The position numbers and the translations under genes are program-made. Source: Escherichia phage sortkaff. Taken from it: DNA of 42,446 nt. The notes beneath the pieces were generated by a model that worked only from the letters and a program-made list of their open reading frames with translations, was not told where the DNA came from and did not search any database. Positions 67 through 37,645 of the stretch are shown here, piece by piece. The stretch's first letter is position 1. Every line of letters begins with the position of its first letter. The stretch lies in the sequence record MN850581.1, one strand, 5' to 3'.

Positions 67-88
67 GTCGTCTATCACTGGACCGTTA

Positions 89-382
89 TCAAGTGGAGCG
101 CCCCGGCGAGAGGTCAGGGCATAGGTGCATATTCTCCGCCGTGATGGGCCAGGGGCTAACCGGGTGGGCGTAGGCCAGCTTGTCGGCCCGTTTGGCGATG
201 TAGCCCGTGCGCTTGCCCGTGTCCTCAAACTTCGCACAGATAACGCACGTCCCGTTACTGGTGAAACGGGTGAAGTTGCCCCGGTGCGCCTTGCACTCGA
301 TCCCCCGGTAGGTGGGGACTTTCATCGCGATAGCCTGCGCGCGGCTGAATGCGACGGGTTTCTCCTTCGTCGCGCCCGCCAT
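89..382 (-). CDS. hypothetical small protein, possible zinc-binding (C-x2-H ... C-x2-C)
   Basis: 97-aa ORF; its ATG overlaps the stop of the upstream gene (TAATG), suggesting translational coupling. Cys/His cluster CKAHRGNFTRFTSNGTCVIC. Confidence 0.5.
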   Translation of the reverse strand: MAGATKEKPVAFSRAQAIAMKVPTYRGIECKAHRGNFTRFTSNGTCVICAKFEDTGKRTGYIAKRADKLAYAHPVSPWPITAENMHLCPDLSPGRST

Positions 383-868: not shown

Positions 869-1126
869 TTATCGGAGCATCAGGAGGAGGCAGCCGACCA
901 CGAGGCCGATCGCCAGCGCCTTAATGATGCCGGGACATTTGGGCCGCTCGTCGTGCGGGAAGTACATCACGCAGTCGCGCATAAGCTCCGCGCGCTTGCG
1001 GTCTATGTCGGCCTGAGTGACTGGCGGACGCGTCAGCCATGAAACCGGGATGTAGGCCGGAGGGACTCGATCCCCCCAGCTCCCGGCGGTCACTTTGCGC
1101 GGCGGTACTGCTTCACGTCGGACCAC
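869..1126 (-). CDS. hypothetical small protein with C-terminal hydrophobic segment
   Basis: 85-aa ORF with a GTG start and GGAGG about 13 nt upstream; overlaps the 3' end of the upstream gene by about 37 nt; C-terminal IIKALAIGLVVGCLLLMLR looks like a transmembrane helix. Start is uncertain. Confidence 0.35.
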   Translation of the reverse strand: MVRREAVPPRKVTAGSWGDRVPPAYIPVSWLTRPPVTQADIDRKRAELMRDCVMYFPHDERPKCPGIIKALAIGLVVGCLLLMLR

Positions 1127-2028
1127 TCGACCACGCCAGCCTCCAGCGTGTTACCTGCGCCGTTGTGGAGCATGATATCCACCAGCGCGTCGTCCGGCAT
1201 GTTGTGCGGCTTATAGCCCCATTCCCACACGATCCAGCCCTCGGAGTCCGGCTTCTCGCGCCCGGTCAGCGCGTCGAGCAAGTCCTGGCCGATCTCGGTC
1301 GGGATCCGGCCCGTGGCCGCCAGCGCCTGGATCTTGCTGCGCAATGCTTCGCCGCGTTTGGTATGCCAGCGGAGGCTCTGCTCCGTCTCCTGCTGGACGC
1401 GCGTCTCAAACCACGCCACGCGCTCGGCGTTGCAGTCACAGCGCGTCAGCTTCTCCATGTTCTCCTGTCCGCGCACGAAGTCCCGAAGGTGGCCGTTAGG
1501 CATCCTGAAAACATTCCAGTTATACGGGAGGCGCTTCTCGTCGCAGTTGGTCACGTAGCGCTCCAGCAAGTCCACGCGCTCCTCGGCCAGTCTGGCCGCC
1601 TTGTCGAATGCCCCGGCCTTGTCGGCCTTTGCCACCAGCTCGCGCGCTACCTGCTCCGTCCAGGCGATGTGTTGAGGCTCGCCCATGATGCCGCGCCAGC
1701 CGTGCGGGACGTGCATCGCGCCGATGATCTCGCGCAACCGGACATAGTAGCCGGACACGGTGGCCTCTGCGGCCCGCATCTGGTCCAGCTCCTGCTCCAG
1801 CTCGCGCTCGCGGTACTTGTCGCGCCACTTCTCGCTCTCGGCATGGACGCGAGCCAGCGCATCGTCGGACAGGAGCGGCAGGTGGCAGGGGGAGAGGTCC
1901 GGCTCCGCTTTGAAGCCGTTCGCCATAGCGTCGGCAATGTCGGAAACGCGGATCTTGCGCTGGGTGTAGCGGGCGCGGTCCTCGTGGGACATATGCGCGT
2001 AGAGTAATCCTTCGTCGTGGCTGTTCAT
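1090..2028 (-). CDS. hypothetical protein (312 aa)
   Basis: Long ORF; ATG at 2028 is preceded by a purine-rich GAGAGAGAGAACC. The in-frame upstream extension to 2217 has no ATG and would begin inside the predicted promoter, so 2028 is preferred. Confidence 0.7.
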   Translation of the reverse strand: MNSHDEGLLYAHMSHEDRARYTQRKIRVSDIADAMANGFKAEPDLSPCHLPLLSDDALARVHAESEKWRDKYRERELEQELDQMRAAEATVSGYYVRLREIIGAMHVPHGWRGIMGEPQHIAWTEQVARELVAKADKAGAFDKAARLAEERVDLLERYVTNCDEKRLPYNWNVFRMPNGHLRDFVRGQENMEKLTRCDCNAERVAWFETRVQQETEQSLRWHTKRGEALRSKIQALAATGRIPTEIGQDLLDALTGREKPDSEGWIVWEWGYKPHNMPDDALVDIMLHNGAGNTLEAGVVEWSDVKQYRRAK

Positions 2029-2219
2029 GGTTCTCTCTCTCGGTTGGTTGAAGGTGGGCGGCGTTGCTTCGTCGGTAGCCTCGGTTCGATTCCACTGGTA
2101 AGCGTTCTGCCTTGCGGCGAGTGTCCAGCGTTCGGCCTCACGGTTGGGAATCCTGACACTACGATCAAGCCCCTGCGTTGCTCCTCTCCGGCTGCATCCT
2201 GCCGCCGCCCTACGCAATA

Positions 2220-2248
2220 AAGATAACGGAAGCGTGATATTAATGCAA
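2220..2248 (-). promoter_or_regulatory. sigma70-like promoter (-35 TTGCAT, 17-bp spacer, -10 TATCTT) with ATCACGCTTCC in the spacer
   Basis: Minus-strand reading TTGCAT-taatATCACGCTTCCgt-TATCTT; near-identical in layout and spacer to the Dam promoter at 15484..15512. Confidence 0.45.
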
Positions 2249-2255
2249 GGATTAT

Positions 2256-2757: not shown

Positions 2758-3138
2758 TCACCACTTCCTCCAGTCGGCAGGGTCGCGCGGGAGCTGCGCC
2801 AGGTCATGGTCCCACTTCGGGGCCTCGTCCGGCTTGCGGTAGCCGTCGTAAAGCATCTGGACCGCCGCGATCGGGTGAGCCGGGAGCGACTCATGGATGT
2901 ACAGATAGAACATGCCGCGCCGTCCCTCGTGGGTGATGCCGAAGCCGCTCCGGGTGTAGGTGTGGAGCGGCTGGTCGCCAGGTGCGGTCGGCATGGTGTC
3001 GGCGAGATACTGGATCGCGCTGGCGTGGAGTGGTGACGGCATCATGATTTGCGGCGTCCCTTCGGTCAGGGTGACGCGCTTGCCATCGTGCGGGCCTCCA
3101 ATCAGGAGCGCCTCGACTAAGTTTGCGGGGTGTTGCAT
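2758..3138 (-). CDS. hypothetical protein
   Basis: 126-aa ORF with RBS GGGAGGA 3 nt before the ATG. Confidence 0.65.
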   Translation of the reverse strand: MQHPANLVEALLIGGPHDGKRVTLTEGTPQIMMPSPLHASAIQYLADTMPTAPGDQPLHTYTRSGFGITHEGRRGMFYLYIHESLPAHPIAAVQMLYDGYRKPDEAPKWDHDLAQLPRDPADWRKW

Positions 3139-3859: not shown

Positions 3860-3966
3860 TTTCGTTTCTCCTCTGGGGGTCGGCGATGTTGCCGCCCTAT
3901 GTGATATAAGATAAACACTTTCGGGCGGCATGTCCAGAGAAATATCACGAAAAGATTAAATTATTT

Positions 3967-4388: not shown

Positions 4389-4611
4389 TGTCGCCTCCCT
4401 TCGCTGCTGCTCTGCGCTGCTCGTCCATCTTCGCCACAAACTCCCGGACGCCCTGCTCCGCGAGCGCCGTCGCCTGGTTATGGCTGTAGCCCTTGCGGCG
4501 GGCTATGTCGTAAAGCTGCTGGCGCATCGTCGCCCGTTGCTGCGGTCCTACATACATACGGGAGAGGTCCGTCACGCTTGCCGCCTGCCCTTTCGTCGTC
4601 TCTTTCATCAT
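4381..4611 (-). CDS. hypothetical small protein
   Basis: 76-aa ORF starting ATGATG with RBS ACGAGG. Confidence 0.6.
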   Translation of the reverse strand: MMKETTKGQAASVTDLSRMYVGPQQRATMRQQLYDIARRKGYSHNQATALAEQGVREFVAKMDEQRRAAAKGGDNE

Positions 4612-4631
4612 TACCTCGTTTTGTCGGGGCC

Positions 4632-5081
4632 GTAACGAAACCGTTACAGCTTGAGAATGTTACACACGATCGCGATTAACAGCGTTAACCCTGCGCCGTA
4701 GACTGCGAAACATATCCAGAGAAATGTCCACGATCCGACGGCTTCCCGGAGTGGTGTTTCCTGCTCCGGCGATGTTCTCCCTCGCGCTTTCCGGGAGGGG
4801 AATTTTATCACGTTAATAGTATGCTCCTTTGCATCACGTTTCAATGATAATTATGTGTGGAAATGGTCGGGGGTTTTGGGGTTTTAACCCCCGGCAAAAT
4901 CCCCGCCGTAACACTCAAAAAATACCCGTTACCGGAATGGCTGTAAGTTACTGAATATCATCGGTAACATTGTCGGTGTAACAGTGTTACCTTTTTGAAA
5001 CTTCGGAGCCACTGGGTAACGGTAACATAAATATATACCCCCTTTAGGGGGTATATGTTATGTAACCCGTGACCGTTACCA
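4632..5081. repeat. cluster of GTAAC/GTTAC iteron-like repeats and palindromes in a roughly 480-bp largely non-coding region
   Basis: About 13 GTAAC/GTTAC pentamers in about 450 bp: palindrome GTAACGAAACCGTTAC (4632-4647), CGGTAACAttgtCGGTGTAACAGTGTTAC (4962-4990), GGTAACGGTAAC (5015-5026), GTAACccgtgaccGTTAC (5062-5079). Also a 10-bp-arm palindrome ATATACCCCC-TTTA-GGGGGTATAT (5033-5056) and hairpin CGGGGGTT/AACCCCCG (4868-4893). Confidence 0.6.
4816..4844 (-). promoter_or_regulatory. sigma70-like promoter (-35 TTGAAA, 17-bp spacer, -10 TACTAT) with CGTGAT in the spacer and again just after the -10
   Basis: Minus-strand reading TTGAAA-CGTGATgcaaaggagca-TACTAT-taaCGTGAT; would drive the downstream early small genes (4611 leftward). 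Confidence 0.4.
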
Positions 5082-5094
5082 GGAAATGTGACCG

Positions 5095-6753
5095 TTAAAA
5101 ATCGTTAAGATCGTCGGCCCCGTCGTCGGCTTTATTGCCCCAGTCAGTCGGGCGCGGATCGTTATCCTTTATCCCACCCAGGAGCGGGATCGCTTCGTTC
5201 ATGGCGGTGAGCGTTTCGTCCCCGGCCATCTTGATCAGGATCTGCTTTTTGGTGGCATGTTCAAAGGCGCGATGGAATTGCATCTTGTCCATCGGGTCGT
5301 CGGTCCCGGTGCGCGCCCAGTCCGATAACATGCCTTTGGTAAGTTTCGGCGTCCGGTAGTTCTTTTCCTTTCGCGTCAGGTTGTACTCGTGGACAAACTG
5401 CGCCAGCCGGAGGGCGTTCTCCTGCGTCCGGCTCACCTTCTGCGCTGCGGCCTTCTCCTCGTCCGCGCCTGCGTCCTGTTTCACCAGCTCCGGCTCGTTG
5501 ATAACGATCAGGGTCGTGTCATTGCTGCCGATGTGCCACGCGGCGGGGCCGTCCTTCCCAGGTGCGGACATGCGCGCCATTGCGTCGCGTTTGGCCTTGA
5601 CCAGCTCCGGCGGGAGTTTAACGGACTTCGTGCGGAATGCGCGCCGCTCCAGCATGGCGGAGCCTTTGGCTTTGGTGTGATCGAATACGAACAAATCGCG
5701 GTCCTTGTGCTTCGAGAGCGTGATCTCAAAGGCGGAGTTAGCCTTGAGGGCAGACGCCCCACGTCCGCCGCGCGTTGCGTCCTTCCCGGAGTGGTGGAGG
5801 ATCACCACGGCACAGTCCAGCGCCTCGGCCAGCTTCTGCGCGTTGGCTAACAGGATCGCCGCCTGGTCGTTGTTGTTCTCGGTGAATGGCTCGCCGCCCA
5901 CCCAGCGCCCCGGCTCGTTGTCCTTCGGTTCGCGCCACTGCTCGCCGATCTTCTGGCCTGCGGAGTTGGCGCTATAGGTATCGATCACGACCAGCGCGGG
6001 CTTGTTGCCCTCCAGCTCGAAGAACGGGGAGGCGTTGAATTTGGCCGCGAATTTCATCAGCTCGCGCTCCCGGTGCAACGGTACGGGCTGCGCGATGATA
6101 AACAGGTTATCAAGCGGCTTGTTTTTGTTCTGGCTGTATACCCAGCCCGCATAGCGCTCTTTCACGCCGTCGGCGTCCTCTGGCGCGAAGTACAGCACGG
6201 AGCCTTTACGGACGGGCAAGCCCCCGAAGTGGTGGCCCTTCGCCACGCAGATAGCCATCTGGAGCGCACAAAACGTTTTCTTTGCCCCGGACTCGCCGAC
6301 CAGGAAGCCCACGGACCGCTCCGGGATCAGGTTCTGGATCACGAAGTTGATAACACGCGGGGCGCTGGCCTCCCGGAGCTTGTCCAGAAATTCGTCCGGC
6401 TGCTCCGCCAGCATGGCCTTAATTTTCGCCAGGTCACGCTCGCGGCGCTCCTCGGTGGTCAGGCTGCGCGGCATCATGGCGGGCTGGTTGTCCTCGTCCA
6501 GTACCATGTCCCACTCGTGATCCGCTTCGTTTGTGCCGAAGTGGTAGAGCTGCACGTCCTCTAACGTCATTCCCTGCTCTGCGGCTGCGTCCTCGTCGAT
6601 CGCCATCTGTCGGGCCAGCTCGTCCTCGCTCATTCCCGGCGAAGTCTCCAGCCATTCCGGCGGCTGCTCCAGAGGCCCGTCGTCTGGGAGGATCTGGTCG
6701 AGTAGCTCCTCTTTGCTCGGCTCCTGCTGGTCGTCTCTTTCGTCTTGGATCAT
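5095..6753 (-). CDS. RepA-like / RecA-fold (AAA_25-like) replication ATPase, putative replicative helicase or initiator
   Basis: 552-aa ORF with a degenerate P-loop VGESGAKKTFCALQMAICVAKG followed by hydrophobic-Asp Walker B (ALVVIDTYS) and an ILHHSGK motif; RBS AAGGAAAG; flanked on both sides by GTAAC repeats. Confidence 0.6.
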   Translation of the reverse strand: MIQDERDDQQEPSKEELLDQILPDDGPLEQPPEWLETSPGMSEDELARQMAIDEDAAAEQGMTLEDVQLYHFGTNEADHEWDMVLDEDNQPAMMPRSLTTEERRERDLAKIKAMLAEQPDEFLDKLREASAPRVINFVIQNLIPERSVGFLVGESGAKKTFCALQMAICVAKGHHFGGLPVRKGSVLYFAPEDADGVKERYAGWVYSQNKNKPLDNLFIIAQPVPLHRERELMKFAAKFNASPFFELEGNKPALVVIDTYSANSAGQKIGEQWREPKDNEPGRWVGGEPFTENNNDQAAILLANAQKLAEALDCAVVILHHSGKDATRGGRGASALKANSAFEITLSKHKDRDLFVFDHTKAKGSAMLERRAFRTKSVKLPPELVKAKRDAMARMSAPGKDGPAAWHIGSNDTTLIVINEPELVKQDAGADEEKAAAQKVSRTQENALRLAQFVHEYNLTRKEKNYRTPKLTKGMLSDWARTGTDDPMDKMQFHRAFEHATKKQILIKMAGDETLTAMNEAIPLLGGIKDNDPRPTDWGNKADDGADDLNDF

Positions 6754-6790
6754 ACTGCTTTCCTTAAATCATGGTAACGTTGTCGGTAAC

Positions 6791-6819
6791 AATGTACCCC
6801 CGACGCGTTACCCGGTCAA
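6791..6819 (-). promoter_or_regulatory. leftward promoter for the RepA-like gene (-35 TTGACC, 17-bp spacer, -10 TACATT)
   Basis: Back-to-back with the rightward promoter. The predicted transcript start falls inside two direct GGTAAC repeats (6773-6778 and 6785-6790, 12-bp period) that sit between promoter and RBS. Confidence 0.4.
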
Positions 6820-6842
6820 CCCGCCGCCAGCAAAGAAAAAAC

Positions 6843-6871
6843 TTTACATCATGGTTTCATTGTTCTAATGT
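6843..6871 (+). promoter_or_regulatory. rightward early promoter (-35 TTTACA, 17-bp spacer, -10 TAATGT) with upstream A-tract
   Basis: TTTACA-tcatggtttcattgttc-TAATGT preceded by caaagaaaaaac; downstream RBS GGAGG 5 nt before the ATG at 6898. Confidence 0.5.
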
Positions 6872-6897
6872 CGATAGCGAACAAACCGGAGGCATTT

Positions 6898-8637: not shown

Positions 8638-8985
8638 ATGACAACAATCATTTACGCCTTACCTAAGCGCACATCACACGCGCGCACGTCTCGATCCACG
8701 CCACTGATCAGCCGTAAAAATTACAGCCTGATTACAGTCGGCGAGCTGGTGAAGTCCACGCCGAAAGGGAAGAAAATTATCCCGCTCTGGTACAACAATC
8801 CGCGCCCCCAGTTTTTCGGGAGCGACTCTTATCACTTTTTCGATAACGTCAAAGACGCGGCGGAGCATATCCGGCACGAGCTGGCCGGGACGTACAAACT
8901 TCTTAACGATCAGGCGAAGTTTATCGCGGAGCTGATCGAGGAGGCGGATCAGATCTACATATCAGCCACGGATCCAACGGCATGA
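8638..8985 (+). CDS. hypothetical protein
   Basis: 115-aa ORF with RBS GGAG (cacccaGGAGcaagccATG). Confidence 0.65.
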   Translation: MTTIIYALPKRTSHARTSRSTPLISRKNYSLITVGELVKSTPKGKKIIPLWYNNPRPQFFGSDSYHFFDNVKDAAEHIRHELAGTYKLLNDQAKFIAELIEEADQIYISATDPTA

Positions 8986-9203
8986 TCCCGGCGGACATTC
9001 AGCGCAAGGCTAAAAAGGTCCTCCAGCGCCACCTCGCCGGGGAGATTAAGCCCCGGAAGCTGGTCGGCGGTCTGGGCCTCGCGCTGGAGGTTGGTTATCG
9101 CTGGCGGCTGCTGTCACGCGATAAGGGCCAGACGTGGGATCTCATGTCCCACGAGAAGTACAACAAACTTACACGGGGCAAAAAGCCCCCTAAAATGAGA
9201 TGA
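8982..9203 (+). CDS. hypothetical small basic protein
   Basis: 73-aa ORF; start overlaps the upstream stop (ATGA). Confidence 0.55.
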   Translation: MIPADIQRKAKKVLQRHLAGEIKPRKLVGGLGLALEVGYRWRLLSRDKGQTWDLMSHEKYNKLTRGKKPPKMR

Positions 9204-10949: not shown

Positions 10950-11949
10950 ATGCGGTGACGGTGAGAGCGCAAGCCGTGGAGGTTGCAGTCTTTCCGCCCG
11001 CGTCAGTAACGCGGCAAGTGTAGGATCCTGCGTCGCCAGACGCCGCTCCGGTTTTCGTGAACGTGGCCGACGTTGCGCCGGAAACTGCTACGCCATCCTT
11101 AAGCCACTGATAGGTTAACGGGGCTACGCCGCCGGAAGCCTGCACAGGGCCGATCGAGATATTGCCACCAGTAGCGACGGAGGACGTCGCCGGGGGCTGC
11201 GTCGTAAACGCCGGGAGCGTGTTTAACGTCACGGCGCAAGCCTGAGACGTAACGGAGCCTTGCGGCACGGCGCTGTCCTTCACAATACACGTATACGTCG
11301 CATTGTCCCCGGTCGCGGCGGTTTTGGTATACGTGGCCGCCGTGGCCCCGGCGATGTTTACGCCGTTTTTCTGCCACTGGTAGGAGTACGGCGCGAGGCC
11401 GCCAGCCGCTGCGACGGTCAGCGTCAACGGGTCGCCGATGTAGACGGCTTTAGTCGGCGTCAGGTTGGTAGAGAGGGACAGGGCGACTTTGAGGCGGATC
11501 CGCTGGGAGTCCTTCGTCTGGCCCTGGCTGTCCGTCACGGTCACGTAATAGTCGCCGTTGTTGCTCGCCTGGTAGTTGGCGATCGCATAGCTCGGCGAGT
11601 TGGATCCGACGTTAACAGTCGTCCCGCCGGAGACTTTCTTCCACTGGTAGGACAGCGGAGCGATCCCCCCAGAGGCGGCGACGGTCAGCGTCTGCGTTGC
11701 GCCAGCCGCGACGAAGGTCGATCCGGCATCACCGCCAGCCACGCCGGGGAGGTCCTGCGTAAACACGATCGGAGGTAGCAGGTTCGGATCGTACTCGATG
11801 TAAAACATTTTCGTGGGGTCGAGGTTAGTCGGGTCAGCGTCTAACCAGATAAGATCTTTTTGCGGAGTCGCGCCGCTGGCCGGATCCTCGATCCGGGTGA
11901 CTTTCCAGCCCAGCAAGTCCGGGCGGTAGTAGCGATGCCAGTAACCCAT
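10948..11949 (-). CDS. protein with three tandem bacterial Ig-like domains after a 95-aa N-terminal domain
   Basis: 333 aa; three repeats of about 80 aa each containing P(L/Y)(S/T)YQW(K/Q/L)K and Y(Y/T)(V/C) motifs typical of Ig-like folds; RBS GAGGA; bounded by terminators on both sides. Confidence 0.8.
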   Translation of the reverse strand: MGYWHRYYRPDLLGWKVTRIEDPASGATPQKDLIWLDADPTNLDPTKMFYIEYDPNLLPPIVFTQDLPGVAGGDAGSTFVAAGATQTLTVAASGGIAPLSYQWKKVSGGTTVNVGSNSPSYAIANYQASNNGDYYVTVTDSQGQTKDSQRIRLKVALSLSTNLTPTKAVYIGDPLTLTVAAAGGLAPYSYQWQKNGVNIAGATAATYTKTAATGDNATYTCIVKDSAVPQGSVTSQACAVTLNTLPAFTTQPPATSSVATGGNISIGPVQASGGVAPLTYQWLKDGVAVSGATSATFTKTGAASGDAGSYTCRVTDAGGKTATSTACALTVTA

Positions 11950-12151: not shown

Positions 12152-12543
12152 TTGAATTTCCCCTCTCTCTTGAATTTCATGATCCGCCCACGAAGGGACG
12201 GGACAGTTTTGCCTAACCAGTTGGCGACGTGCGCGTGGGTCAGCTCGTCCGGGACTACCACGCCGCGCCCGGTGGAGATCACCAGCTCGTCCAGGTCTGC
12301 CTCGGTCAGCTCGTGCTCCAGGAAGCGTAGGAGCCTGCTATCCTCCCCGGTGGTCCATTCCGTATAGGTCCGGTTGAATGCCAGCGACACGCCCAGCTCC
12401 GACGCCCGGACCTGCATCTGGCGGAAGTTGCGCCCGATTTTCTTTGCCAGCTCCTCGCGTGGCATGGTCCCGGCCAGGCGGATCAGCTCCGCGTCCTGCG
12501 CGTCAGTCCATCCGATAATTTCCGCTGTTACTTTACCCATCAT
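12148..12543 (-). CDS. hypothetical protein with two helix-turn-helix-like repeats
   Basis: 131 aa from ATGATG preceded by AAGGGGGA; the longer six-frame ORF (to 12840) overlaps upstream genes and its N-terminal part is Gly/Arg-rich, so is probably not translated. Confidence 0.6.
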   Translation of the reverse strand: MMGKVTAEIIGWTDAQDAELIRLAGTMPREELAKKIGRNFRQMQVRASELGVSLAFNRTYTEWTTGEDSRLLRFLEHELTEADLDELVISTGRGVVVPDELTHAHVANWLGKTVPSLRGRIMKFKREGKFK

Positions 12544-13380: not shown

Positions 13381-13410
13381 ATAAAAGAGAAAAGGCCCCG
13401 GAGTGGGGCC
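13381..13410 (-). terminator. rho-independent terminator after the Dam operon
   Basis: Minus-strand stem GGCCCC-actcc-GGGGCC followed by UUUUCUCUUUUAU. Confidence 0.7.
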
Positions 13411-13415
13411 TGAGA

Positions 13416-14153
13416 CTAGCGGACGTTAGCGAGGAAGGTCGCGAGCGCGAAGCCCTCCGGGGTGGCGCTGCGTATGTTCTTTGTGCGGGTACTCGATCCG
13501 CCCAGCTTGGACCAGCCGGGATTATCTTTAGCCGCCGGGACTGGCTTCACCTCCGGCATAACGAAGCCGCCACCACACCAGATCCCGGTCTGCTTCGGAT
13601 AGGCATCGCGCGCCGGGTAGATCTCCGGGTATAGGCGGTGCTGGTGGTCGTCCGGCAAGTAGCCGCCGTAATGGTACGGGTGAAACCAGTAATCACAGGG
13701 CCGCCACATCGTCGAGAGCCGGGAGATCTTCGGATTCTCCAGCATCCACGGAACGGGCCGCGAATCGTCATAGCTGCCATTCTCATAGGCGGCGAAGTTC
13801 GCCACCTCCTCCACCATGCGAGCCAGCGCGACGGCCTTGTGTTGGAAGTACGGATCCCGCGCCCGTTTCAGCTCCCACCAGCGCGCCCCGGTGCAAGTAA
13901 GGTCGGTACACTCGGCAAACGAGGCGACAAACTCAATACCGGGGCCGACCTCCTCGACAATGGTCAGCGCCTCGATCTCGGTATGCTGCGCGTTAAACAT
14001 GCGCCCGACGCGGATAAGGTTCGGCTCCTGCGGGTCTGGGTGGATCCCGTCCTCGTGCTGGCCGTCATACATCCAGCATTGATAGCCAGCCCGGAGCCAC
14101 GGATCAACCATGATCCGCGTAAGGTTGAATAAGAATATCGCCTTACGCGTCAT
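13416..14153 (-). CDS. hypothetical protein, possible nucleic-acid-modifying enzyme (unassigned)
   Basis: 245 aa, aromatic-rich, with short motifs reminiscent of but not diagnostic for C5-methyltransferases (LENP, TPEGFALA). Translationally coupled to the upstream gene with a GAGG RBS. Confidence 0.7.
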   Translation of the reverse strand: MTRKAIFLFNLTRIMVDPWLRAGYQCWMYDGQHEDGIHPDPQEPNLIRVGRMFNAQHTEIEALTIVEEVGPGIEFVASFAECTDLTCTGARWWELKRARDPYFQHKAVALARMVEEVANFAAYENGSYDDSRPVPWMLENPKISRLSTMWRPCDYWFHPYHYGGYLPDDHQHRLYPEIYPARDAYPKQTGIWCGGGFVMPEVKPVPAAKDNPGWSKLGGSSTRTKNIRSATPEGFALATFLANVR

Positions 14154-14154
14154 G

Positions 14155-14739
14155 TTACGGCCTCGCTGGCATAATGATCATCGTGGACGGTCCGAAAGGC
14201 GTCTTAAACTCGACGCGCATCGGCATGTTATTACCCGCGAAGTGGAGATCAACAAACGGCATCTTAATCCCGAATTTTTTCCCCAGCTTTTCGACGAGGC
14301 CCAGATATTCCGCCATCACCTTAACGTCCGTCACGGCTTTGGAGTTGTTCTTCGCGCTCTCGATCACTGCGGTAAGGTTCGGATAATTGGCGTCCACGAC
14401 GTCAACCGTCCCGACGGCCAGGCGCTGGCGGCGGAAGTCGAAGCCCTCCAGGTCCTGCGGCTTGTCTGCCATCTGCGCGCACCAGTACACGATCCCGGCT
14501 TCGGTATCGATCACGGCGGTAGAGTAGGCGCGCCCGGTCGGCGGTGTGGAAACGTTCAGGATCAGGCCATCCGCCGGGGCCTCGGTCAGCGCGGAGCGGG
14601 TGGAGAGCGCTACGTGGCCGTTAGACGTCTGGATCTCGTCGCCTTTGAAGTGTAAAGCGTTCAGGTAATACCGCACATCCTGGCGGCCTTTGGTGAGCTG
14701 GTGAGCGCGGAGCGCGTCAACGGGTGCATAGATGATCAT
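14155..14739 (-). CDS. hypothetical protein
   Basis: 194 aa; RBS AAGGGGGA 8 nt upstream; sits between the Dam gene and the 245-aa gene in the same operon. Confidence 0.7.
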   Translation of the reverse strand: MIIYAPVDALRAHQLTKGRQDVRYYLNALHFKGDEIQTSNGHVALSTRSALTEAPADGLILNVSTPPTGRAYSTAVIDTEAGIVYWCAQMADKPQDLEGFDFRRQRLAVGTVDVVDANYPNLTAVIESAKNNSKAVTDVKVMAEYLGLVEKLGKKFGIKMPFVDLHFAGNNMPMRVEFKTPFGPSTMIIMPARP

Positions 14740-14752
14740 CTTTGAGTCCCCC

Positions 14753-15453
14753 TTAAATCAGGCTTTTGCCTGCGTACATCATTTCGGTAAGCGTTACGTA
14801 TTCCGTCTTGATCTCGCCGCGCTTGCGGGGCTTGATCAGGAATAAAACGGACGACTTCGCATTTTTGCCGCCAGGTTCCCCGGTCACGGCATCCACAAAC
14901 GCCACGCGCCCGGACGTCTCGCCGTCGCTGGTGATGTGGACAATGACGGACGCATGATCCAGCGCTTTCTTAAACCAGGCCGTAGAGGCGTCGGAGTTCA
15001 CGAGGAGGACCGTCGAGACGCCGCGCGTCTTTGCCTGCTCGATCGCTTTGGTCACAAACGGCATCGGCTCCGCGTATGGTGGGTTACACCACGCCAGCCC
15101 GTTCTCCGCGCCCCAGTTCACTTCGTCGCGGAGGGCGTTCGTCTCCTGTCCAGATAGCAGGCGCACAGGGCGTTAATCTTCTCGGCGGCCACGTCGATCC
15201 CAAACTCGCCGAAACGCTTACGCGCCCAGGCGAAAAGCCACTCCGGCGTCCGCCACTTCTGGCGCACTTTGTCCGGCGTCTTGCTGCCTTTGAAACGGCG
15301 ACCGCTCACGCGGTTCTCGTCGTCGGCCATGATCTCGTTAGTCGCTTTCTGGCCGATGGCCGCGAGCTGGGTCATAACGCCGGGGGCCACGCCATGCTCC
15401 GCGCCTGCCTGCTCCAGCATTTCGATCGTGCTCTTGTCGTTCTCGTATTTCAT
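14753..15453 (-). pseudogene. dam: phage Dam-type DNA N6-adenine methyltransferase (NPPY motif), interrupted by a frameshift
   Basis: N-terminal part (15118..15453, ...WRTPEWLFAWARKRFGEFGIDVAAEKINALCACYL) and C-terminal part (14753..15166, ...NWGAENGLAWCNPPYAEP...) lie in frames offset by one base. Frame switch must fall between plus 15121 and 15171; no slippery heptamer seen. Confidence 0.65.
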
Positions 15454-15483
15454 TGGATTATCCTTTGTTGGTGGATCGCAATT

Positions 15484-15512
15484 AACATAATGGAAGCGTG
15501 ATTTTATTTCAA
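15484..15512 (-). promoter_or_regulatory. sigma70-like promoter for the Dam operon (-35 TTGAAA, 17-bp spacer, -10 TATGTT) with ATCACGCTTCC in the spacer
   Basis: Minus-strand reading TTGAAA-taaaATCACGCTTCCat-TATGTT-aATTGCG; closely matches the promoter at 2220..2248; RBS AAAGGA before the Dam ATG. Confidence 0.45.
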
Positions 15513-15592
15513 GAGGAAAATGTGATTTACTTGTGCTGTCTCTTTCCTTCGTCGGAAAAAATTAGCGCCCGCTGGTATCGGTCGCGCCCATT

Positions 15593-15618
15593 GGCCCCTC
15601 GTGCGGGGCCTTTTTTTT
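15593..15618 (+). terminator. canonical rho-independent terminator oriented for plus-strand transcripts
   Basis: GGCCCC-tcgtgc-GGGGCC followed by T8. The T-tract overlaps the primase stop codon on the opposite strand; no plus-strand gene is evident upstream. Confidence 0.55.
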
Positions 15619-16429
15619 ACCCAAACGCGCCGCAATAGTCAGCGCCCCAGCAAGCCCTCCCCGTCCGCTCGTGCCGATACATCCAGATCTCGTCCGGGTC
15701 AGTCGCCACCATGCGAAGCTCCCGATCGCCCTCATACTCCAGCGCCACCTCGACGGCATTACCCGGCGTAAACGTCAGCCAGACCTCGGCCCCTGTCCGC
15801 GCGGCCACCTTTGCAGCATGGCCGGGATCGGCCACCAGATAAGCCGTCTTGCCCTCGGCGACTGGGTGGATCAGGCCGTAGGATCCCCACGTCGGGCCGC
15901 CTGCTGCAAACGTCACGGAGCGGTCAGGCGCTATCTTCGCCACATTGCAGGGCGATCCCCCCAGCGCACGGAAGCACGGCACATACAGGAAGCCGCCGCG
16001 CATGGTCCCTTTGCTCATGATCAGCTCGACCTCCTCCGGCTTGAGGCTCCAGTCCTCGCGGGGCCGCTGCTGCATGGCTGCGAATTTCTTCGCCTCTTTG
16101 ACGATGGTTTCCCGCTTCTCCGGGGTGAGTCCGCCGATCCAGTCGCCCAGGTCGTTGATCGCCTCGTTGAATGGCTGGTTACGGGAGGCCATAAACCAAA
16201 ACATCCCATCACGCGCGCCGCCACACGAGCCGGAGCAATACGCGAAGCCGTCCCGGCGTTTTTCCTTGTCCTTGTGGCCCCAGCGGAAACGGTCGTTTCC
16301 TCCACATATCGGGCATGGTTGATGCCGCCCCTTGAATATGGCGCGGTCCCAGCCGCACAGCTCGATCAGGACTTGCTCCCATTTGTCCGGCATGGCGGCC
16401 AGTACATCCTCTTTTTTATAAATTGCCAT
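15617..16429 (-). CDS. DNA primase (zinc-ribbon plus TOPRIM-like domain)
   Basis: 270 aa; T7/P4-type primase zinc ribbon CPICGGNDRFRW ... YCSGSCGG; downstream acidic motifs (VAEGKTAYLVADPG, ATDPDE) consistent with TOPRIM; RBS GGAGGA. Confidence 0.7.
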   Translation of the reverse strand: MAIYKKEDVLAAMPDKWEQVLIELCGWDRAIFKGRHQPCPICGGNDRFRWGHKDKEKRRDGFAYCSGSCGGARDGMFWFMASRNQPFNEAINDLGDWIGGLTPEKRETIVKEAKKFAAMQQRPREDWSLKPEEVELIMSKGTMRGGFLYVPCFRALGGSPCNVAKIAPDRSVTFAAGGPTWGSYGLIHPVAEGKTAYLVADPGHAAKVAARTGAEVWLTFTPGNAVEVALEYEGDRELRMVATDPDEIWMYRHERTGRACWGADYCGAFG

Positions 16430-16497
16430 GTTGTCCTCCGGTTAATTCTGCATTACTATAAATCACGCTTTAATGATATTACAAGGAATAAAAAGGC

Positions 16498-18999: not shown

Positions 19000-19028
19000 T
19001 TGCGAACATCACGAAAGCATGATATAAA
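19000..19028 (+). promoter_or_regulatory. sigma70-like promoter (-35 TTGCGA, 17-bp spacer, -10 TATAAA) with ATCACGA in the spacer
   Basis: TTGCGA-acATCACGAaagcatga-TATAAA upstream of the exonuclease gene. Confidence 0.45.
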
Positions 19029-21868: not shown

Positions 21869-21893
21869 CGTAAATCACTAACTAATTAATAAT
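21865..21893 (+). promoter_or_regulatory. sigma70-like promoter (-35 TTGACG, 17-bp spacer, -10 AATAAT) with AATCAC repeats
   Basis: TTGACG-taaATCACtaactaatt-AATAAT-cACGGAG; upstream of the XRE regulator gene; ATCACG spans the -10/+1 junction. Confidence 0.4.
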
Positions 21894-21910
21894 CACGGAG
21901 ACGTTAACAA

Positions 21911-22138
21911 ATGTTGGAGCCTATGATGGCACAGAAACTTAAGCCCGTTTGCCTCGTGAAAGAAGTCCGCGAGGCGAAGGGCGTAAAACAGAAAGATTTA
22001 GCGGACGCGACGGGCATCCTCCAGCAACGTTTAAGCTGCTATGAGAACGGCCACGAGCTGCCGTCTGTAACTAACCTCTGCCGCCTGGCTATGGCGTTGG
22101 ATGTTTCCATTAACGATCTGATCGAGTACGGGGTGTAA
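21911..22138 (+). CDS. XRE-family helix-turn-helix transcriptional regulator (Cro/CI-type)
   Basis: 75-aa ORF; HTH signature QKDLADATGILQQRLSCYENG; most likely start is the ATG at 21926 (GGAG 6 nt upstream). Confidence 0.7.
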   Translation: MLEPMMAQKLKPVCLVKEVREAKGVKQKDLADATGILQQRLSCYENGHELPSVTNLCRLAMALDVSINDLIEYGV

Positions 22139-24967: not shown

Positions 24968-27900
24968 TTACTGCTGGTTATCGTCTGCGGCGGCTCGTCC
25001 GCCAGCGCCCGAAAAGAAGCCCACGATCCCGGCCCGGTTAACTGCTGCCTGTTCCTCCGGGGTCATGGCTGCGAATAGCTCGCGCCACTGGGGGGAATTT
25101 GCCATTTCGCGCTCGGCTTCGTTGACGAAAGTCCGGCCCGCCGGGGTGAGCTTGCCGGAGCTTTGCGCCGCTGCTGCCTGCATGAGTTTATTAAAATTCG
25201 TGCCGGATAGCACATTATCCGCAAGGACCGATCGCGGGACACGGTTCGCACGGGCCAGGCCCTGGGCTGCGGACAATGCGGCGTTACCTGCCGGACCTGC
25301 TGCGGCGTATGCTGCGGCATGTTTCCCGATCCACCCAGCCGCGCCGTAGAGCTTGGACAGCGGACCGCCAGCTCCCGGATCGTCGAAGCGTTTCACGAAG
25401 TCATTGATCGCCCCGGTGGTCGTGGTGAAACGTTGTGCGCGGTCGATACCATTCGCGACGCGGTAGATCTGCATGAAGCGGACGCGCTGCTCTCGCGGTA
25501 GGTGCTTCATAACGTTCCCCAGAGTGCCGTTAGCCTGCGCCGTCTTGTACCAGTCCACGAAGCCGGGGACGGCGAAAGTATTACGCGCGCTACGTGCGCC
25601 CAGGGTACGCTCCAGCGCGTTAGCCACTACCTCGCCTTTGAGGCTCTCCGGGGTTGCCGCCATCAGCTTGTCCCAGTCGCGGGCGCTGCCGCCTTTCTTG
25701 CCCAGGTTAAGGATCGCGTTTTGCACTTTCCCGGTGATCGAGTCGTTGAGGTTTTTCCCCAGCGTGTCGATCGCGATCGTCTCCAGGTCCTTACGACGCT
25801 TAACGAGCTGTTTCCCCACGTTCCAGTCGTCCGCCGCGCCGTACTTGGCCGCGATAGCCTCCTGATCCTCGGTTAATCGCGCGTAGAGCTGTTTTAGCGC
25901 TGCCTTGTCGGAGTCCACAAACGGACCGGATCGCGTGTTAAGCGCCTGGCCTACCTGTCGGCGGAGCTTGTCCAGACGGGCATAAGTCGGCGGCCCCATA
26001 GAGTCGTTAACAGGCTGGAGCCAGTCCAGCGCCTTACGCTCTGCCGCGTCCAGCGTCCCCAGCCCCTCTACGTCCGCCTTGTCCCAGATATGGCGTAACG
26101 TGTTGTTTGCGTCCACGGTTTCGTTTTTCGGGATTTTGGTCGCGATCTGGTTATAAACGTCGTCCGCCTGTTTCCCCAGGTCGTCAATAATGGCACGGGT
26201 GCGGGTGCTAAACGCCTGATCGATCGTCTGCGCGTTCATGGTCCCCATGCTGTCGATCAGCTCGTCCGCTTTCCCGGCCAGACGTCCGATCCCTTCGAGC
26301 TGCTGGGCTTCCAGATTGGAGCCTTTGCGGCTAACGAGCTGCTGGACCGTCGCGCGGAACTGAGGATCACGCGCATAAGCCGCCGGGGTCAGCGAATCCT
26401 CGATCCCCAGTTGCTGGGCGGTGCGCATCAGCTTTTTGTCCACGTCGGCCATGTTCGCAAGGTCGATCGTGTCCTGGGAGGCCCGGAGGTTCTCGCCGTT
26501 CGGCGCGGCCACGTTCTCGTCGCCAGTAAAGCGGAATTTGCTTTGATCGCGGGCCACGGCGTCCGAAATGTTGGCCTCGGTGGCCGCCGGGGTCGGTGCT
26601 GCATCGCCAGCGGCACGAGAAGCCGCTCCAGCTTCCTCCCAGACGCCCTTAGCCGCATTCCATACCTTGCTTGCTCCGCCGATAAGCGCACGGCCTACGG
26701 CCTCGCCAGCGGGCGCTAGTGCGATGTTAGTCAGCGTCTCCTCCGGGTCGCCACGGCCAGCCGCGATCGAGCCGGGAACGGCACGAGCCGCCGGAGCTGC
26801 CACCCATTTCTCCACGCCATCGGCGACGCGGGTCAAAACGCTGGCGACTTCTGGGCTTGCGCGCTCTGCGAGGCCCATCAGCTCCGTAGCTGCTTTGGCC
26901 TTACCTGCGGACGGCAACGGCGCGAGGAGGTCCCCGATCAGGGTCCCGATCTGCGCGTATTTGTCGGTAGGCGGTTCGAAGCCGGGGATCGTCCCCGGCG
27001 GGATGTTCGGCGCTTGCGTGTCCTGGTCAACGATACCCAGCGACTTACCCGCATCCGTGGCCGCGTTGGAAACCATATTGACCAGCGAGATCGGCGTGTT
27101 GAGGAGGTCGATCCCGGTCTGGACGATACCGCGCCCGCCCTGGTCGAGAGCGTGGAGCGCGGTCTGGCCTAACTGTTCCCAGTTTTGGGCGGCTTGCTCG
27201 TTGGGATCGACGGATCCAGGGGCCTGTCCGGCTTGATCAGCGCTGCCCGGCTCTCCGTTACCGTTCGGCGCTGCCGCCCCTCGTGCGACATTAGATCCCG
27301 CTTGATTAGGTGCATTGCCAGCGGGGACGGCTGCGACTTGCTGATCGGCCCCTCCGGCTCCGGCGGTTGCGCCATTTTCTCCAGCTCCGGCGGTAAAGGT
27401 TCCTGCTTCGTCGAACTGGTCGAAAAAGTTACCAGAAGATTTAGAGCCATCCCGGCGGGCGCTGGTTGCGCGCTGAATAGGTTCGCCGCTATCGCCAGCC
27501 CCTCGACTAGTCCACTCGTTAAAACGTTCATCCACATATTGACGCCCCTCCGGGCCGGGGGTTGCCTGGCCCGCCAGTTGTTTGTCTACGTTGCCGGGGC
27601 CGTCGTGGTAAGCCTGGAGCGCAAGGCCCCAGTCTCCGTAACGCTGGTACATCTGGGAAAGGTACTGAGCCCCGGCGTCAGCCTGGAGCGCCGGATCGCT
27701 CTTGAGAGCGTTCCAGTCGTAACCCATATCCTCCGCCGTGCCTTTCATGACCTGCGTTAAACCGTGCGCGCCTTTGCTGGAGACGGCGGACGTAGGATCC
27801 GCCGTGCCGCCCGTTTCCTTGCTCGCGAGTGCCGTCATGATGCCAGCGGGTAGGCCCCATCGTGCCCCGGCGCTCTCCAGTAAATCAGAATACCCGCCGC

Positions 27901-37132: not shown

Positions 37133-37570
37133 TTATGCGTTGCCCTGCGCCTGAGCGGCCAGGAGCTGGATAATCGGCTCCACGTCGGCCTCCGCCGCCG
37201 GGATAGGCAGGTCAACCACGCCGCGCGGCTCGCCTTTGGAAATGTGGAATTTCCAGATCGCCATCACGTCGTCCAGCGAGTAGCCCGCCAGGATCTCCTC
37301 GTGGATCTTCTGCGCGCCGTTGGTTTCGTTAAACTCCAGGACCTGATCAACGGTCGGCATCTGGTTCCCGAATTTCGCCATTGTGCGGGCCATGACGACC
37401 ACGCCGACGCCACGGGACAGGAAGGTGTTACCCTGCTCGCCGCCGGAAACCATCACGGCGATCTCCGGCTCGTCGGTGTTCGGGTGGTAGGCAAGGGCGA
37501 GGGTAACGAAGCCGCCGCGCGGGGTGACTTCGAAAACGCGAGCTGCTGGGGTGGTGGTGATCTCTTTCAT
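37133..37570 (-). CDS. hypothetical protein (cassette gene A)
   Basis: 145-aa ORF; RBS GAGAGAGGA; preceded by its own promoter and operator-like palindrome. Confidence 0.65.
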   Translation of the reverse strand: MKEITTTPAARVFEVTPRGGFVTLALAYHPNTDEPEIAVMVSGGEQGNTFLSRGVGVVVMARTMAKFGNQMPTVDQVLEFNETNGAQKIHEEILAGYSLDDVMAIWKFHISKGEPRGVVDLPIPAAEADVEPIIQLLAAQAQGNA

Positions 37571-37588: not shown

Positions 37589-37645
37589 ATCACGATAGCG
37601 TGATGTTGTGTGAGAAAGAATAGCCCGGACGTACCGGGCTGTAAA
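37589..37645 (-). promoter_or_regulatory. promoter (-35 TTTACA, 17-bp spacer, -10 TATTCT) plus 16-bp near-palindrome ATCACGATAGCGTGAT in the leader
   Basis: Minus-strand reading TTTACA-GCCCGGTACGTCCGGGC-TATTCT; the spacer is the portal terminator stem-loop; near-palindrome at plus 37589-37604 lies about +6 to +21. Confidence 0.45.
37611..37640 (-). terminator. rho-independent terminator after the portal gene
   Basis: Minus-strand stem AGCCCGG-uacgu-CCGGGCU followed by AUUCUUUCUC, about 30 nt after the portal stop. Confidence 0.55.

What the first reader, a model, noticed from the sequence alone, without database searches (positions are those of the whole stretch)
2220..2248. Near-identical promoter copy shared by two distant operons
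The promoters at 2220-2248 and 15484-15512 match over about 29 bp (TTGMAW-taaWATCACGCTTCCrt-TATNTT-wATTGCG), including the entire spacer and the bases after the -10. Spacer identity is not required for promoter function, so this implies either recent duplication or selection on a binding site overlapping the spacer. One copy heads the Dam operon, the other a 312-aa unknown gene with a leader of about 185 nt.
Basis: seen in the sequence. Interest (0 to 1): 0.4.

Follow-up and report, generated by a model that had tools for sequence, protein, structure and literature searches.

The report
Shared repressor-type operator inside two phage promoters
Two distant promoters of this Klebsiella phage look almost identical because both carry the same 16-bp palindromic protein-binding site between their -35 and -10 boxes. 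At least eight promoters of the phage share that site, so this is an ordinary phage control circuit rather than a recent duplication.

Summary
On the minus strand, 2249..2213 and 15513..15477 match at 31 of 37 positions, covering -36 to +1. The flanks match at chance level.

The shared spacer is a dyad, ATCACG-N4-CGTGAT. The window holds 14 copies with up to 2 mismatches, against 1.85 expected. Eight of them lie in the 7% of DNA that is intergenic, against 0.12 expected, and each overlaps a promoter-like site. Copies A and B, and the helicase promoter, place the dyad in the same register, with its last 3 bases forming the start of the -10. That register explains their near-identity.

Both copies have positional orthologues in phage Sortsne. 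Copy B also has them in Kc237 and Skarpretter, so the pair is old, not a recent duplication.

The most likely mechanism is occlusion of RNA polymerase by a dimeric phage protein. The 75-aa XRE protein (21911-22138) is the only candidate found, and the evidence linking it to the dyad is mixed.

Copy B drives Dam-RusA-methyltransferase. Copy A drives a 158-nt structured RNA and then a 312-aa gene. The RNA has no Rfam match and occurs in several families of enterobacterial phages. In sister genera the same loci carry marbox-like promoters.

The parts
2213..2249 (-). Promoter A. -35 TTGCAT at 2248..2243, 17-nt spacer, -10 TATCTT at 2225..2220, discriminator TATTGCG, predicted start G2213.
   Evidence: In every phage that carries the downstream RNA, a -10-like hexamer sits 7-9 nt before the RNA's 5' end.
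2223..2238 (.). Dyad operator in promoter A. It reads ATCACG-CTTC-CGTTAT on the minus strand (1 mismatch to ATCACG-N4-CGTGAT). Its last 3 nt are the first 3 nt of the -10.
15477..15513 (-). Promoter B. -35 TTGAAA at 15512..15507, 17-nt spacer, -10 TATGTT at 15489..15484, discriminator AATTGCG, predicted start G15477.
15487..15502 (.). Dyad operator in promoter B. It reads ATCACG-CTTC-CATTAT on the minus strand (2 mismatches), in the same register as in A.
16462..16477 (.). Dyad ATCACGCTTTAATGAT in the 68-bp primase/helicase divergent region. It fills the spacer of the primase promoter (minus strand, TTGTAA-18-TATAGT). Read on the plus strand it has the A/B register ahead of GATATT, a possible helicase promoter.
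   Evidence: conserved in IME279, Kc237 and Lumpael.
19008..19023 (.). Dyad ATCACGAAAGCATGAT in the spacer of the plus-strand promoter TTGCGA-17-TATAAA before the exonuclease VIII gene.
   Evidence: conserved in 5 genomes.
4833..4848 (.). Dyad ATCATTGAAACGTGAT (minus strand) enclosing the -35 TTGAAA of the promoter at the head of the leftward small-gene cluster. A further half-site, CGTGAT, lies just after its -10.
74..89 (.). Dyad ATAACGGTCCAGTGAT (minus strand) overlapping the -35 and spacer of TTGATA-17-GACAAT, before the gp46 and terminase genes.
21892..21907 (.). Dyad-like site ATCACGGAGACGTTAA at about -8 to +8 of the promoter TTGACG-17-AATAAT in front of the XRE gene. A further ATCAC lies in the spacer (TTGACG-TAAATCAC...).
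37589..37604 (.). The only perfect dyad, ATCACGATAGCGTGAT. It lies between the portal gene and the gp42 homologue, downstream of a terminator-like hairpin and TTTACA-17-TATTCT.
21911..22138 (+). 75-aa XRE/Cro-type helix-turn-helix protein, the only candidate regulator detected.
   Evidence: Pfam HTH_3, E = 2e-13. Closest solved relatives are an XRE-family transcriptional regulator (6jq1), DdrOC, C.BclI and C.AhdI. It is 88-100% identical across Sortsnevirus with an invariant helix 3. No other DNA-binding domain passed threshold among the other 25 proteins scanned.
2054..2211 (-). Structured RNA of about 158 nt transcribed from promoter A. It forms most of the 185-nt leader.
   Evidence: Covariance-model hit of 192.5 bits. 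It has 41 pairs in 7 helices; 91% of cells are paired, against 28-46% in slid controls, and 21 pairs show compensatory changes (also 64 and 86). No Rfam match.
1090..2028 (-). 312-aa ORF of unknown function (gp50 homologue), the first coding gene after promoter A.
13416..15453 (-). Operon driven by promoter B. It comprises Dam (14753-15453, split into two ORFs here), RusA-like resolvase (14155-14739) and a second DNA methyltransferase (13416-14153).
   Evidence: A terminator-like hairpin follows at 13411..13393.

Best explanation
A and B are two members of a family of at least eight sigma-70-type promoters in this Sortsnevirus genome. Each carries the same 16-bp dyad operator, (T)ATCACG-N4-CGTGAT(A).

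In A and B the dyad starts 4 nt after the -35 hexamer, and its right half-site is fused to the -10 hexamer (CGTGAT has become CGTTAT or CATTAT, supplying the TAT of the -10). Identical register plus one perfect left half-site gives the near-identical spacer.

The inferred mechanism is that a dimeric DNA-binding protein made by the phage occupies the dyad from about -25 to -10 and excludes RNA polymerase. The operons for Dam-RusA-methyltransferase (B), the structured RNA plus gp50 (A), primase/helicase, exonuclease VIII-Erf-SSB and others would then be switched together.

Shown here: the dyad, its enrichment, its placement on promoter-like sites, and its conservation. Inferred: that a protein binds it, that binding represses, and that the binder is the 75-aa XRE protein. 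About 0.35-0.4 of the confidence below rests on that protein specifically.
For: - Enrichment. The dyad with up to 2 mismatches occurs 14 times, against 1.85 +/- 1.27 expected; 0 of 100 shuffles reach 14.
- Location. Eight of the 14 lie in the 7.1% of the genome that is intergenic, against 0.12 expected in shuffled intergenic DNA (0 of 500). With up to 3 mismatches the count is 12 against 1.1.
- Symmetry. The pooled half-site profile is WAnATCACG on both arms.
- Placement. The sites overlap the -35, spacer, -10 or early transcribed region of promoter-like sites at varied offsets. This is what operators do; fixed promoter elements do not vary this way.
- Conservation. Half-sites are kept while the central 4 nt vary at the primase, exonuclease VIII, gp46 and leftmost promoters in IME279, Kc237, Sortsne and Lumpael.
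- Orthologues of the two copies. B is TTGAAAtaaaATCACGaaTCC in Kc237 and Sortsne. A is TTGCATgattATCACGatagCGTTATATT in Sortsne.
- A genus-specific variant. Skarpretter uses TTCACG-N4-CGTGAA (12 sites with up to 2 mismatches, against 0-5 in the other four genomes), including its locus-B orthologue in almost the same register. Skarpretter and Sortsne were both isolated on E. coli K-12 MG1655. A host factor would be expected to give both phages the same site, so this favours a phage-encoded binder.
- A candidate regulator. An HTH_3 protein is encoded at 21911-22138 and has a site on its own promoter.
Against: - No binding or transcription data exist; all promoters and start sites are predictions.
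- Promoter A matches the consensus at only 7 of 12 positions.
- The link to the XRE protein is weak. Lumpael keeps ATCAYG dyads although three positions of helix 3 differ that, by analogy with the 434 repressor (from memory), would contact bases: LQQRLSC versus IPHQLSR.
- C130_2 has the same helix 3 as Skarpretter but shows no TCACG dyad enrichment.
- A and B also share positions that neither the dyad nor the hexamers explain: TAA after the -35, the central CTTC, and ATTGCG after the -10. These positions vary among orthologues, so some shared ancestry or gene conversion between A and B is not excluded.
- The site at 21892-21907 overlaps a ribosome-binding region and may be conserved for that reason.
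Confidence: 0.65

Rival explanations
1. The dyad is bound by a host (Enterobacteriaceae) transcription factor rather than by a phage protein. A and B would then be wired into a host regulon.
For: The core TCACG-N4-CGTGA is kept in phages of E. coli, Klebsiella, Salmonella and Kosakonia even though helix 3 of the phage XRE protein differs. Relatives clearly do use a host-type site, the marbox-like sequence, at the same loci.
Against: Sortsne (ATCACG...CGTGAT) and Skarpretter (TTCACG...CGTGAA) prefer different outer bases although both were isolated on E. coli K-12 MG1655. C130_2 and Kc166B have no such sites. I could not recall any E. coli factor with this consensus; that is memory, not a test.
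Confidence: 0.12
2. A and B are alike mainly by descent. One promoter was copied to the other locus, or the two exchange sequence by gene conversion, and the spacer identity is a historical residue.
For: They share 13 positions that neither the hexamers nor the half-sites explain (TAA, CTTC, ATTGCG). A-to-B identity in the window (30/36) exceeds that in IME279 (28/36) and Sortsne (23/36), and exceeds each copy's identity to its Sortsne orthologue (27/36). These counts are my own, made on the sequences.
Against: Both loci already carry the promoter and dyad in Sortsne, and locus B does so in Kc237 and Skarpretter, so any copying event is ancient. Similarity ends exactly at -36 and +1. The same dyad is on at least six further promoters that are not otherwise similar. 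The difference between 30 and 27 matches out of 36 is not significant.
Confidence: 0.1
3. The conserved spacer is an intrinsic promoter feature read by RNA polymerase itself, or by polymerase modified by a phage factor in the manner of the T4 MotA box, and is not a repressor site.
For: A, B and the possible helicase promoter share one fixed register relative to the -10.
Against: In the other family members the dyad sits at quite different positions: over the -35, at the start site, or at about +13 to +28. Two-fold symmetry is not expected of a polymerase-contact element. No RNA polymerase gene or sigma-like protein is annotated in the near-identical IME279.
Confidence: 0.05

Closest known systems
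Lambda OR/OL operators with Cro/CI (lambdoid immunity regions)
   Same: A dyad-symmetric site with an ATCAC...GTGAT core. The lambda consensus half-site TATCACCGC is established knowledge quoted from memory. The site overlaps the -35, spacer or -10 of sigma-70 promoters, and a small Cro/C1-type helix-turn-helix protein is encoded in the same genome.
   Different: - The gap between ATCAC and GTGAT is 6 bp, not 7.
- Sites occur singly on at least eight dispersed promoters, not as two tripartite clusters.
- No CI-type repressor with a cleavable C-terminal domain is present, and no integrase.
- The phage group has been described only as lytic isolates (PMC7552041, PMC8402661).
- Binding is untested.
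Dispersed-operator regulons of phages: P1 C1 with its many operators, and mycobacteriophage L5 gp71 'stoperators' (from memory)
   Same: One short motif is repeated at many intergenic positions around a phage genome. Some copies lie on promoters and some downstream of start sites, which implies one protein controlling many operons.
   Different: The P1 and L5 sites are asymmetric, and both are immunity repressors of temperate phages. Here the site is a palindrome, and no lysogeny module or plasmid relative was found.
Controller (C) proteins of restriction-modification systems (C.AhdI, C.BclI)
   Same: Apart from an XRE-family regulator (6jq1) and DdrOC, these are the closest solved relatives of the candidate XRE regulator (E = 9e-5 to 1.5e-4). 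They are small XRE dimers that bind dyads overlapping promoters, and one target here (B) is a methyltransferase operon.
   Different: No restriction endonuclease gene is present. The sites are genome-wide rather than a single C-box pair upstream of the C gene. The match shows only general HTH_3 similarity.
Class II marbox promoters (MarA/SoxS/Rob)
   Same: In the sister genera, loci orthologous to A and B carry a near-consensus marbox overlapping the -35 region, with a -10 hexamer 18-19 bp downstream. The class II layout is as defined in PMC12052159.
   Different: The window's A and B do not match the marbox. They have ordinary -35 hexamers instead.

Membership tests
Sigma-70-type promoter | A -35 and a -10 hexamer close to TTGACA and TATAAT, separated by 16-18 bp | tested here: met
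   B is TTGAAA-17-TATGTT, 9 of 12, and is listed by the scan. A is TTGCAT-17-TATCTT, only 7 of 12, and is not listed. A is supported instead by position: a -10-like hexamer lies 7-9 nt before the 5' end of the downstream RNA in every carrier phage.
Sigma-70-type promoter | Transcription actually starts there | not testable with these tools
   No transcript data are available. The start sites G2213 and G15477 are predictions.
Repressor-operator regulon (lambda, P1 or LexA type) | A dyad-symmetric motif repeated more often than chance and concentrated in regulatory DNA | tested here: met
   14 sites against 1.85 expected. 8 sites against 0.12 expected in intergenic DNA. The half-site profile is symmetric.
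Repressor-operator regulon (lambda, P1 or LexA type) | Sites overlap core promoter elements | tested here: met
   Dyads lie in the spacer (A, B, primase, exonuclease VIII), over the -35 (4833, 74), or over the -10 and start site (21892). The promoters themselves are predictions.
Repressor-operator regulon (lambda, P1 or LexA type) | Sites are conserved at orthologous promoters while neighbouring bases drift | tested here: met
   Alignments of five promoter regions across up to five genomes. Orthologues of A and B.
Repressor-operator regulon (lambda, P1 or LexA type) | A cognate DNA-binding protein that binds the site | tested here: inconclusive
   One HTH_3 protein is present. Covariation between its recognition helix and the dyad is inconsistent across genera. 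Binding itself is not testable here.
Recent duplication of a promoter cassette | The copies are younger than the divergence of related phages: one locus lacks the element in relatives | tested here: not met
   Both loci carry the promoter and dyad in Sortsne. Locus B also does so in Kc237 and Skarpretter.
Phage-RNA-polymerase promoters (T7-type conserved promoter copies) | A phage-encoded RNA polymerase and a fixed-position conserved block from about -17 to +6 | tested here: not met
   No RNA polymerase is annotated among the 59 genes of the 97%-identical IME279. The conserved block spans -36 to +1 and contains sigma-70 hexamers.
Class II marbox promoter (MarA/SoxS/Rob) | A forward marbox (AYnGCACnnWnnRYYAAAYn; consensus quoted from memory) overlapping the -35 | tested here: not met
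   The window has no intergenic match with up to 1 mismatch. Lumpael has six, including the loci orthologous to A and B.

The most novel reading that the evidence does not exclude
A single phage-encoded factor times nearly all promoters of a virulent P22-like podovirus through one palindromic operator. One of its targets, promoter A, launches a previously undescribed class of about 160-nt structured RNA. This RNA moves as an autonomous module: each host phage supplies its own promoter, the module carries the RNA, and the downstream genes vary. It is found in at least five groups of enterobacterial phages (Sortsnevirus, Murrayvirus, Jilinvirus, Drexlerviridae and the Bas84 group). It could act in cis on the transcribing polymerase, like the put RNAs of HK022, or in trans as an anti-defence or decoy RNA.
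Probability: 0.3. Interest if true: 0.7.

Novelty: new member of a known kind. Interest (0 to 1): 0.4.

Why it matters
For the finding itself, the result turns an odd-looking pair of promoters into a testable map of a small regulon. It gives one motif, about ten targets and one candidate regulator in a phage group known only from genome announcements. Some members of this group have been suggested in the literature as biocontrol agents (PMC8402661).

It also shows regulatory turnover. The same loci are driven by an ordinary -35 plus operator in Sortsnevirus, by marbox-like sites in Murrayvirus, C130_2 and Kc166B, and by both together in Skarpretter.

The by-products may matter more than the pair. 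The first is a covariation-supported RNA family that is absent from Rfam 15 and present in 173 GenBank phage records. The second is a hint that several lytic coliphages use the host Rob/MarA/SoxS activators.

Tried and rejected
- **tRNA or tmRNA in the leader.** ARAGORN found none.
- **Known RNA family.** There were no Rfam hits at gathering scores for the window. None appeared at E up to 10 for three divergent copies of the RNA.
- **Single-sequence folding of the leader.** This was uninformative (z = 0.75). Only comparative analysis revealed the structure.
- **Host or prophage origin of the leader.** There was no match in 5,426 E. coli genomes.
- **Phage-plasmid lifestyle.** Only the ssb gene matches plasmids.
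- **RNA plus gp50 as one module.** Rejected, because a gp50 homologue follows the RNA only in Sortsnevirus and Murrayvirus.
- **Exact-palindrome enumeration.** This was too strict to see the operator family, but it exposed the TAGCA-N5-TGCTA pattern in Lumpael. I then re-read that pattern as an asymmetric marbox, because GCAC and YAAA are conserved without mirror partners.
- **More copies of the full A/B pattern.** None were found in the window with up to 5 mismatches. That search did turn up the palindromic sites in Sortsne and Kc237 that led to the dyad.
- **Other DNA-binding proteins.** Pfam scans of the other 25 phage proteins tested gave only a sub-threshold HTH_Crp_2 hit for gp13.
- **XRE helix versus operator covariation across five genera.** Inconclusive.
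- **Literature.** Searches found nothing on the regulation of these phages or on the RNA.

Full report
**Observation.** Both elements are on the minus strand. Copy A (2249..2213) reads cTTGCAT-TAATATCACGCTTCCGT-TATCTT-TATTGCG. Copy B (15513..15477) reads cTTGAAA-TAAAATCACGCTTCCAT-TATGTT-AATTGCG. The repeat finder lists them as a 37-nt pair at 84% identity. A degenerate 20-mer covering the spacer, searched with 3 mismatches allowed, hits only these two places, with 0 expected. In an ungapped alignment with 40-nt flanks the core matches at 31/37, the upstream flank at 13/40 and the downstream flank at 11/40. The similarity therefore covers -36 to +1, spacer and discriminator included, and nothing else.

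**Context.** The window is a complete, circularly permuted genome about 97% identical to Klebsiella phage vB_KpnS_IME279, genus Sortsnevirus. This is a P22-like podovirus group known only from genome descriptions, which do not mention promoters.

Copy B lies between the primase gene and a Dam gene (PF05869) whose ATG is 24 nt after the predicted start. A RusA-like resolvase gene, a second methyltransferase gene and a terminator-like hairpin follow. Copy A lies directly after the stop codon of a small gene. It is followed by a 185-nt leader and a 312-aa ORF with no Pfam match.

**What the shared spacer is.** A relaxed search for the A/B pattern in relatives turned up palindromic sites such as ATCACGAAAGCGTGAT in Sortsne. 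Searching for ATCACG-N4-CGTGAT with up to 2 mismatches gives 14 sites in the window, against 1.85 +/- 1.27 expected; no shuffle reaches 14. Eight sites fall in the 7.1% of the genome that is intergenic, against 0.12 expected from shuffled intergenic DNA. With up to 3 mismatches the count is 12 against 1.1.

- The eight intergenic sites start at 74, 2223 (A), 4833, 15487 (B), 16462, 19008, 21892 and 37589. The last is a perfect match.
- The pooled half-site is WAnATCACG on both arms.
- Each site overlaps a promoter-like sequence, at different offsets: in the spacer (A, B, primase, exonuclease VIII), over the -35 (4833, 74), over the -10 and start site (21892, in front of the XRE gene), or downstream of the start (37589).

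Variable placement and two-fold symmetry are the marks of an operator for a dimeric protein. They are not expected of an element read by RNA polymerase.

**Why A and B in particular look alike.** In both, the dyad begins 4 nt after the -35 and its last three bases double as the first three of the -10. The right half-site has drifted from CGTGAT to CGTTAT or CATTAT, which gives a better TATnnT. The plus-strand reading of the primase/helicase site has the same register (ATCACGCTTTAATGAT-ATT). One perfect left half-site in the same register, together with the hexamers, accounts for most of the identity. It does not account for TAA after the -35, the central CTTC, or ATTGCG after the -10. These positions vary among orthologues, so some common descent or gene conversion between A and B cannot be excluded.

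**Age of the two copies.** Copy B is TTGAAAtaaaATCACGaaTCCatTATGTT in Kc237 and TTGAAAtaaaATCACGaaTCCgtTAACTT in Sortsne. Copy A is TTGCATgattATCACGatagCGTTATATT at the orthologous position in Sortsne.

In Skarpretter the locus-B orthologue carries a dyad in almost the same register, but with the genus-specific form TTCACG-N4-CGTGAA. That form has 12 sites in Skarpretter, against 0-5 in the other four genomes. Half-sites are also conserved, while the central 4 nt drift, at the primase, exonuclease VIII, gp46 and leftmost promoters across up to five genomes.

A-to-B identity is 30/36 in the window, 28/36 in IME279 and 23/36 in Sortsne. Each copy is 27/36 identical to its Sortsne orthologue. Recent duplication is therefore not the explanation.

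**Who binds.** The only DNA-binding domain detected is the 75-aa HTH_3 protein at 21911-22138.

- In favour: it is the best-conserved small protein. Its helix 3 is invariant within Sortsnevirus. Its own promoter carries a site. Sortsne and Skarpretter, both isolated on E. coli K-12, prefer different outer bases, which argues for a phage-encoded binder.
- Against: Lumpael keeps ATCAYG dyads despite three changes in helix 3. C130_2 shares Skarpretter's helix 3 but has no such dyads.

I therefore assign about 0.65 to 'operator for a trans-acting, probably phage-encoded repressor', and only about 0.35-0.4 of that to the XRE protein.

**What promoter A drives.** The leader is conserved at 83-95% identity in 173 GenBank phage records from unrelated groups, mostly unannotated, and in IMG/VR contigs. 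In each phage it starts 7-9 nt after a -10-like hexamer of that phage's own promoter, and the downstream genes differ.

- A 41-pair, 7-helix structure is 91% paired, against 28-46% for slid controls. It has 16-21 pairs with compensatory changes and covariation scores of 0.33-0.44, against 0.12-0.13 for shuffles.
- Invariant G-U pairs place the RNA on the promoter strand.
- A covariance model finds exactly one copy per carrier genome, and none in Sortsne, Kc237, Skarpretter, C130_2 or Kc166B.
- Rfam 15 has no match, and E. coli genomes have none.

Sortsne has promoter A without the RNA. The promoter is therefore ancestral at that position, and the RNA was either inserted later or lost in Sortsne. 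Its function is unknown. No terminator follows it, so it is at least initially a 5' leader.

**Relatives use another device at the same loci.** In Lumpael, six intergenic sites match the marbox of MarA/SoxS/Rob with up to 1 mismatch (consensus quoted from memory). They include the orthologues of A and B. All are in forward orientation and overlap the -35 region, with a -10 hexamer 18-19 bp downstream. That is the class II layout as defined in PMC12052159. The same arrangement precedes the RNA in the Drexlerviridae phages swan01 and KMI8. It also marks locus B in Skarpretter, C130_2 and Kc166B. The window has no such intergenic site. A and B thus share a regulatory device in each genus even though the device differs, which again points to co-regulation rather than copying.

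**Verdict.** The system is a new member of a familiar kind, a phage operator regulon. The accompanying RNA and the marbox-like promoters are the less expected results.

Noticed in passing
window 2054-2211 (minus strand); also L002, L003, L008/L012, L013, L017-L026, L029-L040: A structured RNA of about 158 nt lies immediately downstream of promoter A. It matches 173 GenBank phage records (Sortsnevirus IME279, Murrayvirus, Jilinvirus, Drexlerviridae, the Bas84 group). Covariation is strong: 21 of 41 pairs show compensatory changes. It has no Rfam 15 match, and in each phage it sits behind that phage's own promoter with different downstream genes.
   Followed up: partly
L012 (Lumpael) 3016-3035, 4781-4800, 8693-8712, 13603-13622, 15915-15934, 37221-37240; L003 about 1445-1465; L025; L028 (marbox-like sequences next to the dyads at 3942-3957 and 26501-26516); L044 and L045 locus B: Near-consensus marbox sequences (ATAGCACnnnnTGYTAAA) overlap the -35 region with a -10 hexamer exactly 18-19 bp downstream, the class II MarA/SoxS/Rob layout. 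They occur at several promoters of lytic enterobacterial phages, including the orthologues of A and B. Sortsnevirus genomes lack them.
   Followed up: partly
window 14753-15453 (minus strand): The Dam gene behind promoter B is split into two ORFs (15453..15121 and 15166..14756, covering Pfam Dam positions 1-47 and 48-167). The IME279 orthologue is one intact 702-nt gene. This is either a frameshift or a sequencing error.
   Followed up: partly
window 4576-5094 and 6754-6897: Many GTTAC/GTAAC(C/G) repeats and long inverted repeats flank the RepA-like AAA ATPase gene (5095-6753). They resemble origin iterons.
   Followed up: no
window 15593-15620: A GC-rich hairpin followed by T8 on the plus strand lies right after the minus-strand primase gene. 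It is oriented as a terminator for antisense (plus-strand) transcription. It is 88-96% conserved in Sortsne, Lumpael and sortregn although the DNA around it diverges.
   Followed up: no
window 8982-9203 (plus strand): A 73-aa protein has a clear ParE-like toxin domain (PF24732, E = 1e-19). It follows a 115-aa ORF of unknown function. This may be a toxin-antitoxin pair in a phage described as lytic.
   Followed up: no
window 15514-15545 (minus strand), upstream of promoter B: A second copy of the half-site context, AAGTAAATCACATTTTCC, lies 21 bp upstream of AAATAAAATCACGCTTCC in B. It is conserved in Kc237. It may be an auxiliary half-site or the trace of a local tandem duplication.
   Followed up: no
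L045 (Kc166B), promoter regions at about 11300-11430, 12392-12468 and 14835-14876: Kc166B promoters carry GTTAAC-containing repeats where Sortsnevirus has ATCACG dyads, and helix 3 of its XRE homologue is different again. The operator sequence may have been replaced in this genus.
   Followed up: no
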